From positions 11,385-75,384 of the forward strand of contig JBBREI010000001.1 in the NCBI GenBank assembly GCA_038203035.1: a DNA stretch of 64,000 nt, read 5' to 3'. Below the pieces are notes generated by a model that had not been told where the DNA came from, did not search any database, and saw only the letters and a program-made list of their open reading frames with translations. Position 1 is the stretch's first letter. Each line of letters begins with the position of its first letter. Positions 56,786-63,735 of this stretch are shown here, piece after piece. Origin of the DNA: Burkholderiales bacterium (lineage in GTDB: Bacteria; Pseudomonadota; Gammaproteobacteria; Burkholderiales; Usitatibacteraceae). The position numbers and the translations under genes were made by a program.

Positions 56786-56810
56786 CTTGCCCTCCCAACA
56801 AATGATCCCG

Positions 56811-58181
56811 ATGCCGTCCTCAGCAGCACTCCAAGTTGTGATCCTGGCCGCGGGCCAGGGCAAGCGCATGCGTTCGGGCCTGCCCAAGGTGCTGCACCCC
56901 ATCGCCGGGCGCCCGCTGATCAATCACGTGATCGATACCGCGCGCTTGTTAGCGCCCACTCGCTTATGCGTCGTCATCGGTCACGGCGGCGACCAGGTCC
57001 GCGCGGCCCTGGCCGATGTGGACGTGGCCTGGGCAACCCAGGATCGACAACTCGGTACCGGGCACGCCGTGATGCAAGCGCTTCCTTACCTGGACGAGGC
57101 GGGGACGGTACTGATCCTCTACGGCGACGTGCCGCTGATCGCCTCCGGCACGTTGCGATCCCTGGTTGATGCGGCATCGGCGGGGCACGTGGCGCTACTC
57201 ACCCAGAGCCTCGAGCAGCCAAAGGGATACGGTCGCATCGTGCGAAACGGTGCCGGACGGGTGGTCCGCATCGTGGAAGAAAAAGACGCATCCGAAGCGC
57301 AGCGCGGCATCCGCGAGGTCAACACCGGCATCATGGCGCTTCCCCGCGCCAGCCTCGCCCGGTGGCTGGGCCAGCTGAAAAATGAAAACGCCCAGGGCGA
57401 GTACTATCTGACCGACGTCATCGCGGCGGCCGTGGCCGACGGCGTTGCCGTCGAAGTGCGCCATCCCGCGGCGGCGCACGAAAGCCTCGGCGTCAACAGC
57501 AAGTCGGAGCTCGCGACCCTCGAACGCCACTACCAGATGAATCGCGCCAACCAGCTCATGCAGCAGGGCGTCACCCTGGCCGATCCCGCGCGCATCGACG
57601 TGCGCGGCGATCTGAATTGCGGGCGTGACGTCGCCATCGACGTGAATTGCATTTTCGAGGGCACCGTTACCCTCGGCGACGGCGTCAAGGTCGGCGCCAA
57701 CTGCATCCTTCGCGACGTCAGCATCGGGGCCGGCACCGAGATCAAGCCCTTCACCCTCATCGAGGAAGGCGTCATCGGCGCCAACGCGCGTATCGGCCCG
57801 TACGCGCGGATCCGCCCCGGGACGCAACTCGCCGACGACGTGCACGTCGGCAATTTCGTCGAGGTGAAAGCAAGTTCCTTCGGCCGTGGCAGCAAGGCGA
57901 ACCACCTCGCCTACGTTGGGGATACGACGGTGGGCAGCGGCGTGAACATCGGCGCGGGAACCATCACCTGCAACTACGATGGGGCGAACAAGCACCGCAC
58001 GGTGATCGAAGACGACGTGCACATCGGCAGCGACGTGCAACTGGTCGCGCCGGTCACCGTGGGCAAGGGCGCGACGATCGGCGCGGGCGCGACCATCAGC
58101 AAGGACGTGCCGCCCGGCGGCCTCACGCTCACCGAGAAGAAGCAGGTCACCAAGCCGGACTGGAAGCGCCCCCGCAAATAA
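56811..58181 (+). CDS. glmU: Bifunctional UDP-GlcNAc pyrophosphorylase/glucosamine-1-phosphate acetyltransferase
   Basis: [30 protein letters not shown], hexapeptide repeats, HLAYVGD; start 56802 or 56811. Confidence 0.97.
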
Positions 58182-58193
58182 TCAGGGATGCAA

Positions 58194-59822
58194 TCAGAAG
58201 GTCAGCTCGGTCTTGACCAGGAACTGCACCGCCTTGATGCCCGGTGCGCGGCTCAGCGGCACGGCGACGTCGAGGTGAAGGACATTCGCGAACGCCGTGC
58301 GGTCGAGCGAAAGGCGCAATCCCACGCCCGCATCCGCCAGCCAGCCGCCATTCACGGTGTTCTGGTTCGCACCGCCCCACGCGCGCCCGATGTCGAGGAA
58401 GGCGGCCCCGCCGACGCGCACCAGGTGCAATGGATACCAGTCGGAGTAGCGGCGCTGCTCGAGTGTCGCCACCACCCGGTTCTCGCCCGCCTGGTAGCGC
58501 GATGGGTAGCCACGCATGCCCTCGAGACCTCCCAGGAGCAACAGGTCCGCGATGCCACCCCCGCGAACCTTCTCCCCGACGAGCGACGCGAAGTAGAGCG
58601 AATCGCGGCTTCTCGGCGCGTAGAACTGCAAGCCGGCGCCGCCCTGCGTCATCGGCGTGGCGAGGCTCGACACGCGGCGTTCGACTTTCGCCTGCGCGAA
58701 CAGGCGATGGCCCGAGGCGAGCGTGGTGCCGTCGCCGGCCTCCAGTGCGTACAACCAATCCGACCGCGTCGAGCCGAGGCCACGCAACGCGCGCGCGACC
58801 TGCGCCCGCAGGTGGAATCCGAGGCCGAAGAATTCCGTGCGCGCGATGTTGTTGTAGTTCACGACCTTGATGAAGTCGTCCTCGATCAGCTCGTAGCGCA
58901 GGAACGGCGCGCGCACGCGGTGGGTCACGGGCAGGGGCACGACGAGGTCGCGTCCCGGTTCGGCCCGGTAGGCGTCGTCGTTCGCGTAGACCCCCCCCGA
59001 ATAGCGCGACGTCCAGCCGTCCACGAGCCCGGGCGACCATCCGACTGCGAGCTCCGCAGCCTTCTCCCGATGGCGATACTCGCTCATCTTGTCGCCCGAG
59101 TTGTAGATCGAATCGATGCGGTCGTTGTCGCTCCAGGCGCCGCGCGCGGCGTAGCGCGTATCGAGCGAGTAGAAGGGGCGATCGACGGCCACCGCGGTTC
59201 GCCGGCCGTCGCTGAACTGGCCGCGGCTGAAGGCGAGCTGGGTCCAGCCGTCGAAGGCCTGGTTGTAGCTGGCCTCGAGCTCGGTGCCGTTGCGGTCGTT
59301 GTCGGAGGTCCGCGCGAAGCCCACGTTGAGCCCGGTGCCCAGCACGTTGCGCTCGCGCGCACCGAACGACGACTTGTTGTTGCCGCCGCTGCGGGAGAAG
59401 CTGCCGGTGAGGTCGAGCGACCAGGTGTCGCGGGTGAGAACTTCGATGTCCACCTTGCCATCCCGGTATTCGCCCGGCCGGATCTCGACGTCGTGGACGA
59501 TCCGCAGCGCCAGCAGGACGCGCTCGGTCTCCTCGATCTTCTGCACCAAGACCTTGTCGCCGCTCTTGAAGAGCAGCACGCGCGCGACCACCTGGGGGCG
59601 GGTCACGAAGTGCAGGCGGTTCGCCAGCCGGTAGAAGAGGCCGCTTTCGGCCGGGTCACCCGTGTCGAAGATGTTGCGCGCCTCGACGCGCACCTCGCCG
59701 ATCACCGCGCCCGCCTTTTCCAGGTCGCGGAATTCCGGTGGCAAGGCGGGTTGGGCGCCGAGCATCGTCGCAGCCGACAACAACACGCCCGCAAGCGGGC
59801 CCCGGCGAAGCCAACGACGCAT
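58194..59822 (-). CDS. Omp85-superfamily (BamA/TamA-like) outer-membrane beta-barrel with a single POTRA-like domain
   Basis: Signal peptide; LLFKSGD...EETERVL POTRA-like segment; ERNVLGTG, MRGYP (loop-6 motif), FLDIGRAW, DAGVGLR; terminal Phe. Confidence 0.8.
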   Translation of the reverse strand: MRRWLRRGPLAGVLLSAATMLGAQPALPPEFRDLEKAGAVIGEVRVEARNIFDTGDPAESGLFYRLANRLHFVTRPQVVARVLLFKSGDKVLVQKIEETERVLLALRIVHDVEIRPGEYRDGKVDIEVLTRDTWSLDLTGSFSRSGGNNKSSFGARERNVLGTGLNVGFARTSDNDRNGTELEASYNQAFDGWTQLAFSRGQFSDGRRTAVAVDRPFYSLDTRYAARGAWSDNDRIDSIYNSGDKMSEYRHREKAAELAVGWSPGLVDGWTSRYSGGVYANDDAYRAEPGRDLVVPLPVTHRVRAPFLRYELIEDDFIKVVNYNNIARTEFFGLGFHLRAQVARALRGLGSTRSDWLYALEAGDGTTLASGHRLFAQAKVERRVSSLATPMTQGGAGLQFYAPRSRDSLYFASLVGEKVRGGGIADLLLLGGLEGMRGYPSRYQAGENRVVATLEQRRYSDWYPLHLVRVGGAAFLDIGRAWGGANQNTVNGGWLADAGVGLRLSLDRTAFANVLHLDVAVPLSRAPGIKAVQFLVKTELTF

Positions 59823-59844
59823 TACCAGCGGCGCGCGGGCGAGA

Positions 59845-60495
59845 TCACCACCGGGCGGGCGGCTTCTTGTTGATCGTGATGTAGCGGTTCTCGACGGTGA
59901 TGTAACCACCTGAGGTGAGGTCGCGGAAAATGCGGCTCACCATGTCTCGTGACGCCCCCACCCGTTCCGCGATTTCCTGTTGCGTGAGCTTTTCGGGAAT
60001 GACCAGCTTGCCGTCCTTCTCGACGCCCATGTTGAGCAGCAGGCGAGCCACCCTGCCGTAAACATCGAGCAGGGCCAGGTCCTTGATGCTATTCGTCGCG
60101 AGCCGCGCGCGGTCGATGATCTTGGAGATCATGTCGAGCGCGAAGTCGGGATCCCTGCGGATCGCTTCGCGGATCGGCTCGCGCGCCACGACGGCGAAAG
60201 TGCTTGGCTCCAGCGTCATCACCGAAGCCGACCGCGGCTTTCCGTCAAGCGCCATTTCGCCGACGTATTCGCCCGGCCCCTGGGTGTCCAGGATCATCTC
60301 GTGGCCCTCGGTATCCGAGATGAACACCTTGACGCGGCCCGTGAGCACCACAAACACCGAGTCGCTCGAATCACCCTCGGTGATGAACACGGTGTTCTTC
60401 GGGTAGGTGCGCAGCCGTCCCAGCGCAGCGAGTTGCCTCACGAAGGGGTCGGTGATTGCCTCGAGCTGCGCGGCGCTCGGCGTATCCCCCGTCAT
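59845..60495 (-). CDS. Crp/Fnr-family transcriptional regulator
   Basis: cNMP-binding GEYVGEMAL-DGKPRSASV and C-terminal HTH LTQQEIAERVGASRDMVSRI; no Fnr Cys cluster. Confidence 0.92.
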   Translation of the reverse strand: MTGDTPSAAQLEAITDPFVRQLAALGRLRTYPKNTVFITEGDSSDSVFVVLTGRVKVFISDTEGHEMILDTQGPGEYVGEMALDGKPRSASVMTLEPSTFAVVAREPIREAIRRDPDFALDMISKIIDRARLATNSIKDLALLDVYGRVARLLLNMGVEKDGKLVIPEKLTQQEIAERVGASRDMVSRIFRDLTSGGYITVENRYITINKKPPARW

Positions 60496-60572
60496 TTTTT
60501 CTTTCTTGGGATGGCGCTGATTGAAGTGGTCCAGTCTAGCATCCGGCAGGGGCCACGTTAAGATAGCTGCCC

Positions 60573-61688
60573 ATGGAATCCCTCGACGACGACGGCGGGC
60601 GCTCCGCGATGCGCGCCATGGCGGTTGCGGCACTGGCGCTCTGCGGTTTCCTCCTCTCCCTGCTGCCTTTCACCGCCGCGCTCGACCTCGCGCTGCTCGA
60701 TGCGCAGTGGCAGGTGCTGCGACGTTTTGACTGGCGGCAGGCCACCGATGAAATTGTCCTGGTGGGCGTCGACGAGGCCACGGTGCGATCGATCGCCGAA
60801 CCCCCGGGCCTGTGGCATGTCCCCCTCGGGCAGGCGCTGGCGCGCCTGGCCTCGGCCAGGCCGCGCGCCATCGGCCTGGAGCTCGCGCTCCCGGAGCGCT
60901 CGTTCGACGCGGTGAAGCCGGGGCTCGATCGCGCGTTATTCGATGGCCTCGCCGCCGCGGTGGAAAACGGCCCCTTCGTCGCCACGCTCAGCATCGACCC
61001 GCGCACCCGTGCGGCGCGCAACATCCACAAGCCGTTCCTCGCCCTGCTCGGCGAGTCGCGACTCGGCCTCAACCTCGTGGCGCGTGATGCGGACGGGCGG
61101 TCGCGGCGCTTCTCGCTGGTTGTGCCGACCGAAGACGGGGGCTTCCCGACACTCGAGGGCCGCCTGTGCCGCGCGATGAACCGCGCCTGCACCGACGGCC
61201 TGATCCACTATTCGCTGGGCAGGCCCTTCACCTATGTGCCGCTCAAGAATGTGTTGTCGATGGGCGACGCCACCCTGTTCAACAACCTTTTTCGCGACCG
61301 CATCGTCCTGGTCGGAGAGGCGCTGCCTTACACCGACCGCATCGACGTCCCGGTCAATTTCGCCGGCTGGGAGGCGGGCGGGCACGATTCCCCCGCCCTG
61401 GTGGTGCACGCGCAGACGCTGCGCACGGCCATCAACGGCAACGCGCCCCAGGAGGCCTCACGTCCCCTGGGCCTGCTGCTGGTGTCAATCGCGGCGCTGG
61501 CGTTCCTGGTTCGCGACCCGCGCCTGGCCGCCCTGCTCGCGGGTTTGCTGGCGCTGGGGGCCTTCGCCCTTGCCACGTTCGCCCTGCGAGGCGGCCTGCA
61601 GGTGCCCATAGCGCCATTGCTCGCCACCCTGGCCCTTGCGCTCGCCGCCCGGGTGGCCCTGACCCTGAAAGCGCGAAAAAAAGCCTAG
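60573..61688 (+). CDS. Stand-alone CHASE2 sensor with three C-terminal TM helices and no cytoplasmic output domain
   Basis: EIVLVGVDEAT, RAIGLE, FRDRIVLVG, VHAQTL CHASE2-like motifs; three hydrophobic helices, then KARKKA-stop. Confidence 0.8.
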   Translation: MESLDDDGGRSAMRAMAVAALALCGFLLSLLPFTAALDLALLDAQWQVLRRFDWRQATDEIVLVGVDEATVRSIAEPPGLWHVPLGQALARLASARPRAIGLELALPERSFDAVKPGLDRALFDGLAAAVENGPFVATLSIDPRTRAARNIHKPFLALLGESRLGLNLVARDADGRSRRFSLVVPTEDGGFPTLEGRLCRAMNRACTDGLIHYSLGRPFTYVPLKNVLSMGDATLFNNLFRDRIVLVGEALPYTDRIDVPVNFAGWEAGGHDSPALVVHAQTLRTAINGNAPQEASRPLGLLLVSIAALAFLVRDPRLAALLAGLLALGAFALATFALRGGLQVPIAPLLATLALALAARVALTLKARKKA

Positions 61689-61837
61689 TCGACCTGCAGG
61701 ATATTCAGCATCCGCGGTGCTGCCTATCCCACCGCGCGCGAAGCGCCCCATGGCCGATGATGGAATCAGGTCGTGAGGTTCCTCCTCCCACGGCTTGCAG
61801 GGCGACGTGAGGCCAAGAGCATGCCGCCTTTCTTGAT

Positions 61838-61873
61838 TCTCCCCGGCCCCCAGGCCGGGGAGACCTTTCTTTT
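61838..61873 (+). terminator. Terminator-like hairpin about 40 nt upstream of glmS
   Basis: 11-bp perfect stem TCTCCCCGGCC/GGCCGGGGAGA followed by CCTTTCTTTT. Confidence 0.55.
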
Positions 61874-61905: not shown

Positions 61906-63735
61906 ATGTGCGGAATCGTCGGCGCCATCGCCAGTCGCAACGTCGTACCCATCCTGACCGAGGGCCTGAAGCGCCTCGAATACCGCGGCTACGACTCCGC
62001 GGGCATCGCCGTGCTCAATGGCGGCATTCGCCGGGTTCGCCGGGTGGGCCGTGTCGCGGAGATGGAAAGCGCCGCGCGAGCCGAGAAGCTGGAAGGCATC
62101 GTCGGCATCGCCCACACGCGCTGGGCCACCCACGGCGGCGTTACCGAACCCAATGCGCATCCCCATGTGTCCATGGAAGAGATCGCCGTGGTCCACAACG
62201 GCATCATCGAAAACCACGAGGAGCAGCGCGCCCGCCTGAAGGCGCTGGGTTACCCGTTCGAGTCGCAAACCGACACCGAGGTCATCGCGCACCTGGTGCA
62301 CCACTACTACAAGGCGGGCGGCGGCCTCTTCGAAGCCACGCGCCTCGCGGTGGCCGACCTGCAGGGCGCCTACGCGATCGGCGTGGTGGCCCTGGCCGCC
62401 CCGGAAATCATCACCGGCGCGCGCATGGGCTGCCCGCTGGTTGTGGGCCTGGGCGAGGGTGAGAATTTCCTCGCCTCCGATTTCTCCGCGCTGATCTCCG
62501 AGACCCGGCGCGTGATGTACCTGGAAGACGGCGACGTCGTTGCGCTGGAGCGCGGGGGCGTGCGCGTGGTCGACCGGGACGGCCGGGCGGTGGAGCGCGC
62601 GGTGCACCTGTCCGACCTGTCGGCCGATGCGGTCGACCTCGGCCCCTACCGGCACTACATGCAGAAGGAGATCCACGAGCAGCCGCGCGCCGTCTCCGAC
62701 ACCATCGAGGGCGTGATCGACGGCGGCGTGGACGTCGAGGGCCTCTACGGAGCGGGCGCCCTCGCCACCTTCCGCGACATCGATTCGGTCCTGATCCTCG
62801 CCTCCGGCACCAGCTACTACGCGGGTCTTGTGGCGCGCTACTGGATCGAGGGCCTGACCCGCGTGCCCTGCAACGTGGAGCTGGGCCACGAATATCGCTA
62901 CCGCGATTCCATCCCCAATCCGCGCCAGCTCGTGGTCACCATCTCGCAATCGGGCGAGACGCTCGACACGATGGAAGCCCTCAAGCGCGCCAGGCAGCTG
63001 GGACAGGCGCACACGCTTTCGATCTGCAACGTGCGCGAAAGCGCCATACCACGCGCCTCCCGCTTCGCCTTCTATACCCGCGCGGGCGCGGAAATCGGTG
63101 TCGCCTCCACCAAGGCCTTCACCACGCAGCTTGCGGCGTTGTTCACGCTCACCCTCGCCATCGGCAAGGCGAAGGACCGCATCACGCCGCAGCTCGAGGC
63201 CGAGGCGATCGAACAGCTGCGATTCGTGCCGGGAAGCATCCAGCACGCGCTCAACCTCGAGCCGCAGATCCAGGCCTGGGCCGAGCGCTTCACGCTCCAC
63301 GAACACGCACTTTTCCTCGGTCGCGGCATCCACTACCCGGTGGCCCTCGAGGGGGCGCTCAAGCTCAAGGAGATCTCCTACATCCACGCCGAGGCCTACC
63401 CGGCCGGCGAGCTCAAGCACGGTCCGCTCGCCCTGGTGGATTCCTCGATGCCGGTGGTTGTGATCGCGCCCAACGACGCGCTGCTCGAGAAGGTGAAGTC
63501 GAACATGCAGGAAGTGCGCGCGCGCGGCGGCGAGCTCTACGTGTTCGCCGACCTCGACAGCCACTTTGCCGAAAGCGAAGGGGTGCACGTCATTCGCACC
63601 CCGCGCCACGCCGGTTGGTTATCACCGATCGTGCACGCCATCCCGGTCCAGCTGCTCGCCTATCACACGGCGCTGAAGAGGGGCACCGACGTCGACAAGC
63701 CTCGCAACCTCGCGAAGGCTGTCACTGTCGAATAG
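61906..63735 (+). CDS. glmS: Glutamine--fructose-6-phosphate aminotransferase
   Basis: [59 protein letters not shown]. Confidence 0.98.

What the first reader, a model, noticed from the sequence alone, without database searches (positions are those of the whole stretch)
58194..61688. Candidate trans-envelope signalling module between glmU and glmS: Omp85 barrel, Crp regulator and output-less CHASE2 sensor
Seen: three genes separate glmU and glmS. crp and omp85 form an apparent operon (22-bp gap), and the CHASE2 gene is divergent across a 77-bp spacer, giving one outer-membrane, one inner-membrane/periplasmic and one cytoplasmic DNA-binding component. No cyclase, kinase, integrase or transposase is present. 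Known: glmU-glmS are often adjacent; CHASE2-3TM normally feeds an adenylate cyclase, kinase or GGDEF domain; in Sinorhizobium CHASE2 cyclases, a Crp-like regulator and an outer-membrane barrel form one cascade. Inference: a compact and possibly undescribed cNMP-linked envelope signalling system whose cyclase is supplied in trans or bypassed. This is the strongest system-level lead in the window.
Basis: partly seen in the sequence, partly recalled or inferred. Interest (0 to 1): 0.7.

Follow-up and report, generated by a model that had tools for sequence, protein, structure and literature searches.

The report
Cyclase-less CHASE2 sensor beside Crp
The three genes between glmU and glmS are not one signalling machine: a conserved cAMP-type regulator (Crp) sits beside a membrane sensor that lost its adenylate-cyclase half but is still kept by selection, and the Omp85 outer-membrane gene is a recent add-on found in only a few relatives.

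Summary
The genes, the 22-bp and 77-bp gaps, and the lack of any output domain are all real. The three-part trans-envelope module is not supported.

In 46 genomes of the genus (Usitatibacter), Crp at this site is near-universal (43/46, 82-95% identity). The CHASE2 neighbour has four states:
- Full CHASE2 + class III cyclase, followed by an unknown gene and a TPR-CHAT gene: 3 single-contig genomes and a deeper metagenomic relative.
- CHASE2 with a degenerate cyclase: 1 genome.
- Cyclase-less CHASE2, as in the window: 26 genomes.
- No CHASE2 gene at all: at least 8 genomes, from at least 5 independent losses.

Gene trees with cyclase-bearing outgroups show that the short form is derived. It is under purifying selection (dN/dS 0.11-0.24; periplasmic domain 0.07-0.17).

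The Omp85 gene is a real single-POTRA Omp85 barrel. It lies at this locus in only 3 of the genus genomes examined, lies elsewhere in 5, and has no conserved neighbours. It sits in a 2.2-kb tract that recently recombined between two species. It is unrelated to S. meliloti NsrA.

Best reading: this is a reduced clr-cyaD1-like locus. Its receptor-only CHASE2 protein probably still binds a periplasmic signal and tunes cAMP/Crp signalling through other cyclases. That last step is inferred.

The parts
56787..58181 (+). glmU, the fixed left border of the locus in all relatives
   Evidence: Pfam NTP_transferase + Hexapep. Synteny.
57750..60000 (.). Tract of about 2.2 kb recently exchanged by recombination: the 3' end of glmU, all of omp85 and the 3' end of crp
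   Evidence: DNA identity to genome G017 is 91-98% across the tract against 64-88% in the adjoining glmU-to-glmS sequence. dS for omp85 is 0.10 against 0.5-1.1 for the neighbouring genes.
58194..59822 (-). Single-POTRA Omp85-superfamily outer-membrane barrel, an accessory gene at this locus
   Evidence: AF2 model with pLDDT 80, and Foldseek matches to BamA/TamA at probability 1.0. RGY motif R437-G438-Y439 is invariant. Weak NCBIfam hits. Present at this site only in G000, G017, G016 and two metagenome contigs.
59845..60495 (-). CRP-type cNMP-binding transcription factor, the core gene of the locus
   Evidence: cNMP_binding + HTH_Crp_2. Closest solved structures are E. coli CRP, M. tuberculosis Crp and Vfr. 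Found in 43/46 genus genomes at 82-95% identity. dN/dS 0.035-0.11.
60496..60572 (.). 77-bp divergent spacer with two invariant blocks: AGTCTAGCATC (60533-60543) and CGTTAAGAT (60556-60564)
   Evidence: Alignment of 28 orthologous spacers. The spacing between the hexamers is fixed at 17 bp. Read towards crp this gives -35 TTAACG and -10 TAGACT. Read towards CHASE2 it gives CTAGCA and TAAGAT, with the ATG only 8-14 nt further on. No CRP-box-like dyad was seen on reading the alignment (no formal motif scan).
60573..61688 (+). Cyclase-less CHASE2 membrane protein: TM1, a periplasmic alpha/beta domain, three TM helices, then a tail of about 6 residues
   Evidence: PF05226 only. AF2 pLDDT 86, pTM 0.84, and no PDB fold match. 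Orthologues are 359-382 aa in 26 species. Derived from CHASE2-cyclases. dN/dS 0.11-0.24.
61767..61873 (+). Conserved sRNA-like element of three hairpins. The first loop is C/U-rich (anti-SD-like), and the last hairpin is an intrinsic terminator (61838-61863 plus a U-run).
   Evidence: Conserved in 31 genus genomes, including the crp-only ones. Compensatory pairs occur in the first and terminator stems. The terminator scan finds it. The only Rfam hit is sub-threshold, to ar14.
61906..63735 (+). glmS, the fixed right border of the locus
   Evidence: GATase + SIS domains. Synteny.

Best explanation
The stretch is a reduced version of an ancestral gene cluster wedged between glmU and glmS: crp, divergent from a CHASE2 adenylate cyclase, followed by an unknown gene and a TPR-CHAT gene.

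Shown:
- In the lineage leading to this genome the two downstream genes were lost. One species shows the cyclase domain inactivated but still present, and 26 species lack it altogether. What remains is a 371-aa membrane-anchored periplasmic CHASE2 domain with no cytoplasmic output.
- crp stayed as a highly conserved core regulator with an intact cyclic-nucleotide phosphate/ribose pocket.
- The receptor-only protein is not a dead relic. It is intact in 26 species and under purifying selection that is strongest in the periplasmic domain.
- The Omp85 gene is an independent accessory gene. It entered downstream of crp in one subclade and was recently moved between species by homologous recombination. 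It may be read through from the crp promoter, but it is not a required partner.

Inferred: the receptor-only protein still binds the periplasmic signal or partner of its cyclase-bearing ancestors. It would act as a non-catalytic co-receptor or decoy that tunes cAMP production by the genome's other membrane cyclases, which feed the same Crp.
For: Anatomy.

Four locus states across 46 genus genomes.
- The full state is also present in a deeper relative, in the order atp-glmU-crp-CHASE2/cyclase-unknown-TPR/CHAT-glmS.
- In the CHASE2 tree all outgroups are cyclase-bearing, and the three full-length genomes are sister to the 27-member clade holding all the short forms.
- G018 keeps a cyclase domain in which a metal-binding Asp is Gly and the transition-state Asn is Arg. 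The full-length proteins keep Asp, Asp, Asn and Arg.

Selection:
- dN/dS for the short CHASE2 is 0.11-0.24 in 9 close species pairs.
- By region it is 0.07-0.17 in the periplasmic domain and 0.18-0.58 in TM2-4. That is at least as tight as in the full-length cyclases, at 0.20-0.27.

Crp:
- 82-95% identical in 43/46 genomes.
- The CRP contacts G71/E72 and R82/S83 are conserved.

Cyclases in trans: 6 class III domains in this genome, two of them on CHASE2 proteins.

Orphan loss is concentrated in lineages that also lack the 624-aa CHASE2-cyclase paralogue (raw Fisher p 0.005-0.01).

Omp85 is accessory.
Against: - No expression or interaction data could be obtained.
- On reading the 28-spacer alignment I saw no CRP-box-like dyad in the 77-bp spacer (no motif scan was run), so Crp control of the CHASE2 gene is not shown.
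- The gene has been lost completely at least 5 times, so its function is conditional at best.
- The link with the CHASE2-cyclase paralogue vanishes under phylogenetically independent contrasts.
- G047 and G054 keep a selected orphan (dN/dS 0.14) without that paralogue. No specific partner is therefore identified.
- The cytoplasmic tails are short and not conserved between clades, so any signalling must run through periplasmic or membrane contacts. That has no described precedent for CHASE2.
Confidence: 0.5

Rival explanations
1. First reader's model. Omp85 (outer membrane), CHASE2 (inner membrane/periplasm) and Crp (cytoplasm) form one dedicated trans-envelope signalling cascade, analogous to NsrA-CyaK/CyaD-Clr, with the cyclase supplied in trans.
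For: The three genes are adjacent, with crp and omp85 only 22 bp apart. The same gene order recurs in G017, G016 and two metagenome contigs. CHASE2 descends from a cyclase paired with crp. The S. meliloti precedent for outer-membrane protein + CHASE2 cyclase + Crp-like regulator is real (PMC13001267, PMC7529298).
Against: Omp85 is absent from this locus in 35 of 38 genus loci examined. Elsewhere it occurs alone, with no conserved neighbour, and it also occurs in families that lack the orphan CHASE2. It lies in a freshly recombined tract. It is not related to NsrA, which is a 1219-aa FecR+TPR+barrel protein: BLASTP E is 0.16 and there is no tblastn hit on pSymB.
Confidence: 0.08
2. The short CHASE2 gene is a functionless relic of the decayed cyclase gene, drifting towards loss.
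For: The states form a graded series across the genus: full, pseudo-cyclase, truncated, absent. There are at least 5 independent complete losses. No output domain or conserved cytoplasmic tail remains.
Against: The reading frames are intact at 359-382 aa in 26 species, even though these have diverged to 49-81% identity. dN/dS is 0.11-0.24 overall and 0.07-0.17 in the periplasmic domain, as low as for glmU. Many periplasmic residues are invariant, including a Cys pair.
Confidence: 0.12
3. The short CHASE2 protein has taken on an envelope role unrelated to cyclic nucleotides, such as a binding, scaffolding or enzymatic role of the periplasmic domain. Its position next to crp would then be only inherited synteny.
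For: Selection is concentrated on the periplasmic domain. The orphan persists under selection in genomes that lack the closest CHASE2-cyclase paralogue. I saw no CRP-box-like dyad in the spacer alignment. The CHASE2 fold has no solved relative that could limit its possible activities. Other CHASE2-only proteins of about 370 aa exist in unrelated contexts, for example P0270 beside a DUF928-like gene.
Against: All output-bearing relatives scanned, and every outgroup in the tree, are adenylate cyclases. The divergent pairing with crp is kept in every genome that retains the gene, with a fixed 60-78-bp spacer and invariant promoter-like blocks. No catalytic motif is known for CHASE2.
Confidence: 0.3

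Closest known systems
Sinorhizobium meliloti Clr / CyaD1-CyaD2-CyaK / NsrA cAMP cascade (clr-cyaD1-smc02177-smc02178 and nsrA-cyaK loci)
   Same: A Crp-family regulator gene lies next to a CHASE2 receptor gene. In the full-state relatives of this locus the CHASE2 protein is a class III cyclase and is followed by a TPR-containing protein gene. In S. meliloti, clr (SMc02175) and cyaD1 (SMc02176) have consecutive locus tags, with smc02178 located near them. Among the Clr targets SMc02177, SMc02178 and SMb20495, one carries TPR motifs and one a FecR domain (PMC5498481). In both organisms many cyclases feed one Crp-like regulator.
   Different: The window's CHASE2 protein has no cyclase domain. The TPR protein of the full-state relatives carries a CHAT domain. 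The outer-membrane partner NsrA is a 1219-aa FecR+TPR+barrel protein encoded directly upstream of cyaK, and it shows no similarity to the 542-aa single-POTRA Omp85 here. Homology of the accessory genes was not tested, because the S. meliloti chromosome is not in the collections.
Omp85 superfamily (BamA, TamA, TpsB transporters)
   Same: Signal peptide, a POTRA-like unit, a C-terminal barrel, the L6-loop RGY motif and a C-terminal Phe. Foldseek probability is 1.0 to BamA and TamA.
   Different: There is only one POTRA. Identity to solved members is 12-15%. This sequence has no Pfam hit. There is no TpsA-type or TamB-type partner gene and no conserved neighbourhood. In two distant contigs the homologue sits in the order DUF5343, Peptidase_C13, small ORF, Omp85, luciferase-like monooxygenase.
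CRP-type cAMP receptor proteins (E. coli CRP, P. aeruginosa Vfr, M. tuberculosis Crp)
   Same: The domain pair is cNMP_binding + HTH_Crp_2. The G71/E72 and R82/S83 equivalents are conserved, and so are R180 and R185 of the recognition helix.
   Different: The base-contact positions T127/S128 are Ala/Thr, and E181 is Asp. The NCBIfam CRP equivalog score is 118 bits against a cut-off of 266. The genome also has a second paralogue at 44% identity.
Canonical CHASE2 receptors (CHASE2 fused to a cyclase, kinase or GGDEF domain)
   Same: The PF05226 domain is flanked by one N-terminal and three C-terminal membrane helices.
   Different: The protein stops about 6 residues after the last helix. No paper found by the two CHASE2 searches I made of the held library characterises such a stand-alone CHASE2 protein, judging by titles and abstracts.

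Membership tests
Omp85 superfamily | C-terminal 16-stranded beta-barrel of the BamA/TamA/FhaC type | tested here: met
   The AF2 model (pLDDT 80) has a long run of antiparallel strands from about residue 109 to the C-terminus. Foldseek matches BamA and TamA with E 6e-13 to 1e-9 and probability 1.0.
Omp85 superfamily | At least one periplasmic POTRA domain N-terminal to the barrel | tested here: met
   The model has one strand-helix-helix(-helix)-strand unit at residues about 40-120. The NCBIfam BamA hit aligns residues 103-221 to the POTRA5/barrel junction of the model. The count of one POTRA rests on the model only.
Omp85 superfamily | Conserved L6-loop (V/I)RG(Y/F) motif | tested here: met
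   The motif is M-R-G-Y at 436-439. R437, G438 and Y439 are invariant in 34 homologues.
Omp85 superfamily | Match to the curated Pfam model PF01103 | tested here: not met
   This sequence has no Pfam hit even at E 10. About a third of its homologues carry a precomputed PF01103 hit.
CRP-type cAMP receptor (CRP/FNR superfamily) | N-terminal cNMP-binding beta-roll plus C-terminal Crp-type helix-turn-helix | tested here: met
   PF00027 with E 6e-21 and PF13545 with E 1e-13.
CRP-type cAMP receptor (CRP/FNR superfamily) | Residues that hold the cyclic phosphate and ribose (E. coli G71, E72, R82, S83) | tested here: met
   The alignment to E. coli CRP chains shows GE and RS conserved.
CRP-type cAMP receptor (CRP/FNR superfamily) | Adenine contacts T127/S128, and actual cAMP-dependent DNA binding | tested here: inconclusive
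   The aligned residues are Ala and Thr. The NCBIfam CRP equivalog score is below its cut-off. Ligand binding cannot be tested in silico.
CHASE2 transmembrane receptors | CHASE2 extracytoplasmic domain between membrane helices | tested here: met
   PF05226 scores 88.7 bits against a cut-off of 26.3. The model has helix 5-29, a periplasmic alpha/beta domain at 61-290, and helices 297-312, 316-339 and 347-370.
CHASE2 transmembrane receptors | Cytoplasmic output domain (cyclase, kinase or GGDEF) after the last helix | tested here: not met
   The protein ends at residue 371. The downstream 217 bp hold an sRNA-like element and no coding remnant. Orthologues in G019, G041 and G042 do carry Guanylate_cyc.
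NsrA-CyaK/CyaD-Clr type cascade (S. meliloti) | NsrA-type outer-membrane protein (FecR + TPR + C-terminal barrel) | tested here: not met
   The pSymB ORF upstream of cyaK is 1219 aa with FecR and TPR domains. BLASTP against the window's Omp85 gives E 0.16. tblastn of the Omp85 against all plasmids, pSymB included, finds no Sinorhizobium hit.
NsrA-CyaK/CyaD-Clr type cascade (S. meliloti) | Catalytically competent CHASE2 cyclase encoded beside the Crp-like regulator | tested here: not met
   Not met in the window. It is met in the full-state relatives, where the metal Asp residues, Asn and Arg are present.

The most novel reading that the evidence does not exclude
The cyclase-less CHASE2 protein is a genuine signalling component of a kind not yet described for bacterial cyclase receptors. 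It would be a receptor-only subunit, retained for millions of years, that pairs in the membrane or periplasm with other CHASE2 enzymes, or sequesters their ligand, and so sets the gain of cAMP-Crp signalling. In the subclade that carries it, the crp-linked Omp85 would supply an outer-membrane entry point for the signal.
Probability: 0.15. Interest if true: 0.6.

Novelty: new variant of a known kind. Interest (0 to 1): 0.35.

Why it matters
The finding removes a tempting false lead. Adjacency of an outer-membrane, an inner-membrane and a cytoplasmic gene does not make them a system.

It replaces that lead with a well-resolved natural series in one genus, at one fixed chromosomal site: full CHASE2 cyclase, pseudo-cyclase, receptor-only protein, no gene.

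The receptor-only stage is intact in 26 species and under purifying selection focused on the sensor domain. It is therefore a good test case for whether bacterial sensor domains can keep a job after losing their enzyme, as decoys or co-receptors. It is also a convenient handle on the ligand of CHASE2, a widespread domain with no solved structure and few known signals.

Tried and rejected
1. My first synteny run used crp coordinates one base off (60496). It gave a spurious 52-61% Crp identity. After correction, Crp is 82-95% identical.
2. I looked for a cyclase remnant downstream of the CHASE2 stop codon and found none. The space holds an sRNA-like element.
3. I looked for a CRP-box-like dyad by reading the 28-spacer alignment and saw none (no motif scan was run). 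The sigma-70 consensus scan also found no promoter at its 9/12 threshold.
4. I tested whether the Omp85 is NsrA-like. It is not.
5. I looked for a conserved partner gene of the Omp85 family in seven loci and found none shared. cNMP-binding genes lie near it in two distant contigs, but they are unrelated paralogues at 30% identity or less.
6. A fold search of the CHASE2 model against the PDB found nothing below E 0.08.
7. I tested co-distribution of the orphan with the 624-aa CHASE2-cyclase paralogue. A raw association exists, but independent contrasts give it no support.
9. Garnerone et al. 2018 (PMC5952392) is not held in the library.
10. Literature searches for stand-alone CHASE2 proteins returned nothing relevant.


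Full report
**1. Observation**

The ORF list and raw sequence show five genes in this order:
- glmU, 56787-58181 (+)
- a 542-aa secreted protein, 58194-59822 (-)
- crp, 59845-60495 (-), 216 aa
- a 371-aa CHASE2 protein, 60573-61688 (+)
- glmS, 61906-63735 (+)

Pfam finds cNMP_binding + HTH_Crp_2 in Crp and CHASE2 alone in the 371-aa protein.

The putative Omp85 has no Pfam hit even at E 10 and only weak NCBIfam BamA/Omp85 hits. An alignment-based AF2 model (pLDDT 80) shows one POTRA-like unit and a barrel, and it matches BamA and TamA with Foldseek probability 1.0. The L6-loop RGY motif is invariant in 34 homologues.

One correction to my own work: my first synteny run took crp one base out of frame and gave a false low identity. 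This was fixed.

**2. The genome and the cyclase question**

Source names on homologues place the window in Usitatibacter, a betaproteobacterial genus. The assembly is 3.68 Mb in 279 contigs. It holds five CHASE2 proteins and six class III cyclase domains, and two proteins carry both.

**3.

I examined the locus in 38 genomes of the genus.
- Crp at this site is almost universal: 43 of 46 genomes, 82-95% identity, dN/dS 0.035-0.11.
- The Omp85 gene is at this site only in the window genome, G017 and G016, plus two metagenome contigs.
- Five other genus genomes carry the Omp85 homologue elsewhere, at 45-53% identity. Three genomes from other families of the order have it without any orphan CHASE2.
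- Seven loci holding the homologue share no neighbour gene. In two distant contigs it follows DUF5343 and a Peptidase_C13 gene and precedes a luciferase-like gene.
- Between the window and G017, a tract from about 57750 to 60000 is 91-98% identical at the DNA level, against 64-88% in the adjoining glmU-to-glmS sequence. The tract covers the end of glmU, all of omp85 and the end of crp. dS for omp85 is 0.10 against 0.5-1.1 for the neighbouring genes. This is the mark of a recent recombinational import.

Omp85 is therefore an accessory passenger, not a fixed member of a module.

**4. What the CHASE2 gene is**

Thirty of the 46 genus genomes have the orthologue. It is always divergent from crp wherever the contig allows this to be seen.
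- Twenty-six orthologues are 359-382 aa.
- Three single-contig genomes (G019, G041, G042) instead encode 572-577-aa CHASE2 + Guanylate_cyc proteins at the same place. Each is followed by an unknown gene of 250-400 aa and a TPR-CHAT gene of about 1000-1100 aa before glmS.
- A more distant metagenomic relative (P0242, 49% identity) has the same full arrangement, embedded in atp-glmU ... glmS.
- G018 encodes a 585-aa protein whose cyclase domain has lost a metal-binding Asp (now Gly) and the transition-state Asn (now Arg). The full-length proteins keep Asp, Asp, Asn and Arg.
- In a library of 1.84 billion representative proteins, the four output-bearing relatives I scanned (about 590-630 aa, 38-49% identity) are all CHASE2 + class III cyclases.
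- A maximum-likelihood tree rooted on such cyclases puts P0242 first, then the three full-length genomes, as sister to a well-supported clade (98/99) that contains all 26 short forms plus G018.

The cyclase-less form is therefore derived, through one to three truncation events.

At least eight genomes have no CHASE2 gene at all, only glmU-crp-glmS. On a tree built from the flanking genes these are scattered, which implies at least five independent losses.

**5. Is the short form alive?**

dN/dS in nine close species pairs is 0.11-0.24. That is comparable to glmU (0.11-0.26) and to the CHASE2 part of the full-length proteins (0.25).

By region, the periplasmic domain is the most constrained, at 0.07-0.17. 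TM2-4 gives 0.18-0.58. In the full-length cyclases the periplasmic domain gives 0.20-0.27.

The AF2 model is confident (pLDDT 86, pTM 0.84). It shows TM1, an alpha/beta periplasmic domain and three C-terminal helices, with only about 6 cytoplasmic residues at the end. No solved structure resembles it.

The C-terminal tails differ between clades. The 'NI(Q/R)HS' tail seen in one clade overlaps a DNA block that in the window lies after the stop codon, so it is probably a nucleic-acid signal and not a protein motif.

The gene is thus functional, and its function resides in the periplasmic domain.

**6. Regulation**

An alignment of 28 orthologous spacers shows two invariant blocks, AGTCTAGCAyC and CGTTAAGAT, with fixed spacing.
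- Read towards crp they give -35 TTAACG, a 17-nt spacer, and -10 TAGACT.
- Read towards CHASE2 they give CTAGCA, 17 nt, and TAAGAT, with the start codon 8-14 nt beyond. That would mean a leaderless or near-leaderless mRNA.

These assignments are inference.

**7. Crp**

The closest solved structures are E. coli CRP, M. tuberculosis Crp and Vfr. The phosphate/ribose contacts (G71, E72, R82, S83) and the recognition-helix arginines are conserved. T127/S128 are Ala/Thr and E181 is Asp. A second paralogue at 44% identity lies elsewhere in the genome.

**8. Comparison with S. meliloti**

The literature confirms the following:
- The CHASE2 cyclases CyaD1, CyaD2 and CyaK, the Crp-like regulator Clr and the outer-membrane protein NsrA form one cascade.
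- clr (SMc02175) and cyaD1 (SMc02176) have consecutive locus tags, and smc02178 lies near them.
- Removing the CHASE2 domain of CyaD1 makes cAMP synthesis constitutive (PMC5498481, PMC13001267, PMC7529298).

The full-state Usitatibacter locus resembles clr-cyaD1-smc02177-smc02178 in its organisation.

NsrA is a different matter. Read here from pSymB, it is a 1219-aa FecR + TPR + barrel protein encoded directly upstream of cyaK. It has no detectable similarity to the window's Omp85.

**9. Mechanism**

Shown: descent from a Crp-paired CHASE2 adenylate cyclase, loss of the output domain, continued selection on the sensor domain, and other cyclases present in the genome.

Inferred: the receptor-only protein still binds the ancestral periplasmic signal or partner, and modulates cAMP input to Crp as a decoy or co-receptor.

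A search for a specific partner was inconclusive. The closest CHASE2-cyclase paralogue (624 aa) is present in 28 of 46 genomes. Loss of the orphan is enriched where that paralogue is absent (Fisher p 0.005-0.01). However, sister-pair contrasts show no signal, and G047/G054 keep a selected orphan without the paralogue.

The rival readings remain open: an envelope role unrelated to cNMP, or slow decay.

**10. Verdict**

The sequence facts are right. The system-level interpretation is mostly wrong. What is present is a reduced variant of a known kind of locus plus an unrelated accessory Omp85 gene.

The long-lived, selected, output-less CHASE2 protein is a modestly interesting new variant. A conserved sRNA-like element upstream of glmS is a separate lead.

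Noticed in passing
window 61767-61873 (+): A conserved sRNA-like element lies between the CHASE2 stop codon and glmS. Hairpin 1 has a C/U-rich, anti-SD-like loop (UUCCCUCCUCUCC in most species). Hairpin 2 is GGCGACGUG...CAUGCCGCC. Hairpin 3 is an intrinsic terminator. It is present in 31 genus genomes, including those with no CHASE2 gene, with compensatory base changes in the first and terminator stems. In G041 it directly follows the CHASE2-cyclase gene. The only Rfam hit is sub-threshold, to ar14 (23.8 bits, E 0.3). It could be a trans-acting sRNA or a glmS leader/attenuator.
   Followed up: partly
window 57750-60000: A recombination tract is shared with genome G017 at 91-98% DNA identity, against 64-88% in the adjoining glmU-to-glmS sequence. 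It carries omp85 with the ends of glmU and crp as homology arms.
   Followed up: yes
window 61702-61713: The block GATATTCAGCAT lies just after the CHASE2 stop codon. In other species the same block is inside the reading frame and encodes the 'NI(Q/R)HS' C-terminal tail. Its conservation in both settings suggests a DNA/RNA signal, possibly the promoter region of the downstream sRNA-like element.
   Followed up: partly
L047:5393-7150 (-) (genome G018): This 585-aa CHASE2 protein has a cyclase domain that is retained but degenerate: a metal-binding Asp is Gly and the transition-state Asn is Arg. It is an intermediate between the full-length and truncated states.
   Followed up: yes
L037, L063, L064, L086 (full-state loci): In the full-length CHASE2 cyclases of this lineage the substrate-specifying Lys is Asn (motif DN[IF]RGDG), and GFT is GST in three of them. 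Nucleotide specificity (cAMP or cGMP) is therefore uncertain.
   Followed up: no
L037:871-4170 (-), L063:2905-5901 (-), L064:10902-14159 (+), L086:9101-11968 (+): A TPR-CHAT (caspase-like) protein of about 1000 aa and an unknown protein of 250-400 aa with no Pfam hit follow the CHASE2 cyclase in every full-state locus. Both genes are absent wherever the cyclase domain is degenerate or lost.
   Followed up: partly
L048 and L096 (metagenome contigs with Omp85 homologues at 58-61% identity): A shared context for the Omp85 family exists away from the glm locus: DUF5343, Peptidase_C13, a 60-aa ORF, Omp85, then a luciferase-like monooxygenase. Unrelated Crp/Fnr-family or cNMP-binding genes lie within one or two genes in L049 and L096.
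   Followed up: partly
L088:3-119 (-) and L088:193-1320 (+): A CHASE2-only protein just 36% identical to the window's (P0266, 375 aa) is also divergent from a Crp whose first 39 residues closely match the window's Crp. The sensor evidently diverges very fast while its Crp neighbour stays fixed.
   Followed up: partly
G000 contig C19:14122-14688 (-): A second CRP-type paralogue, 44% identical to the window's Crp, exists in the same genome.
   Followed up: no
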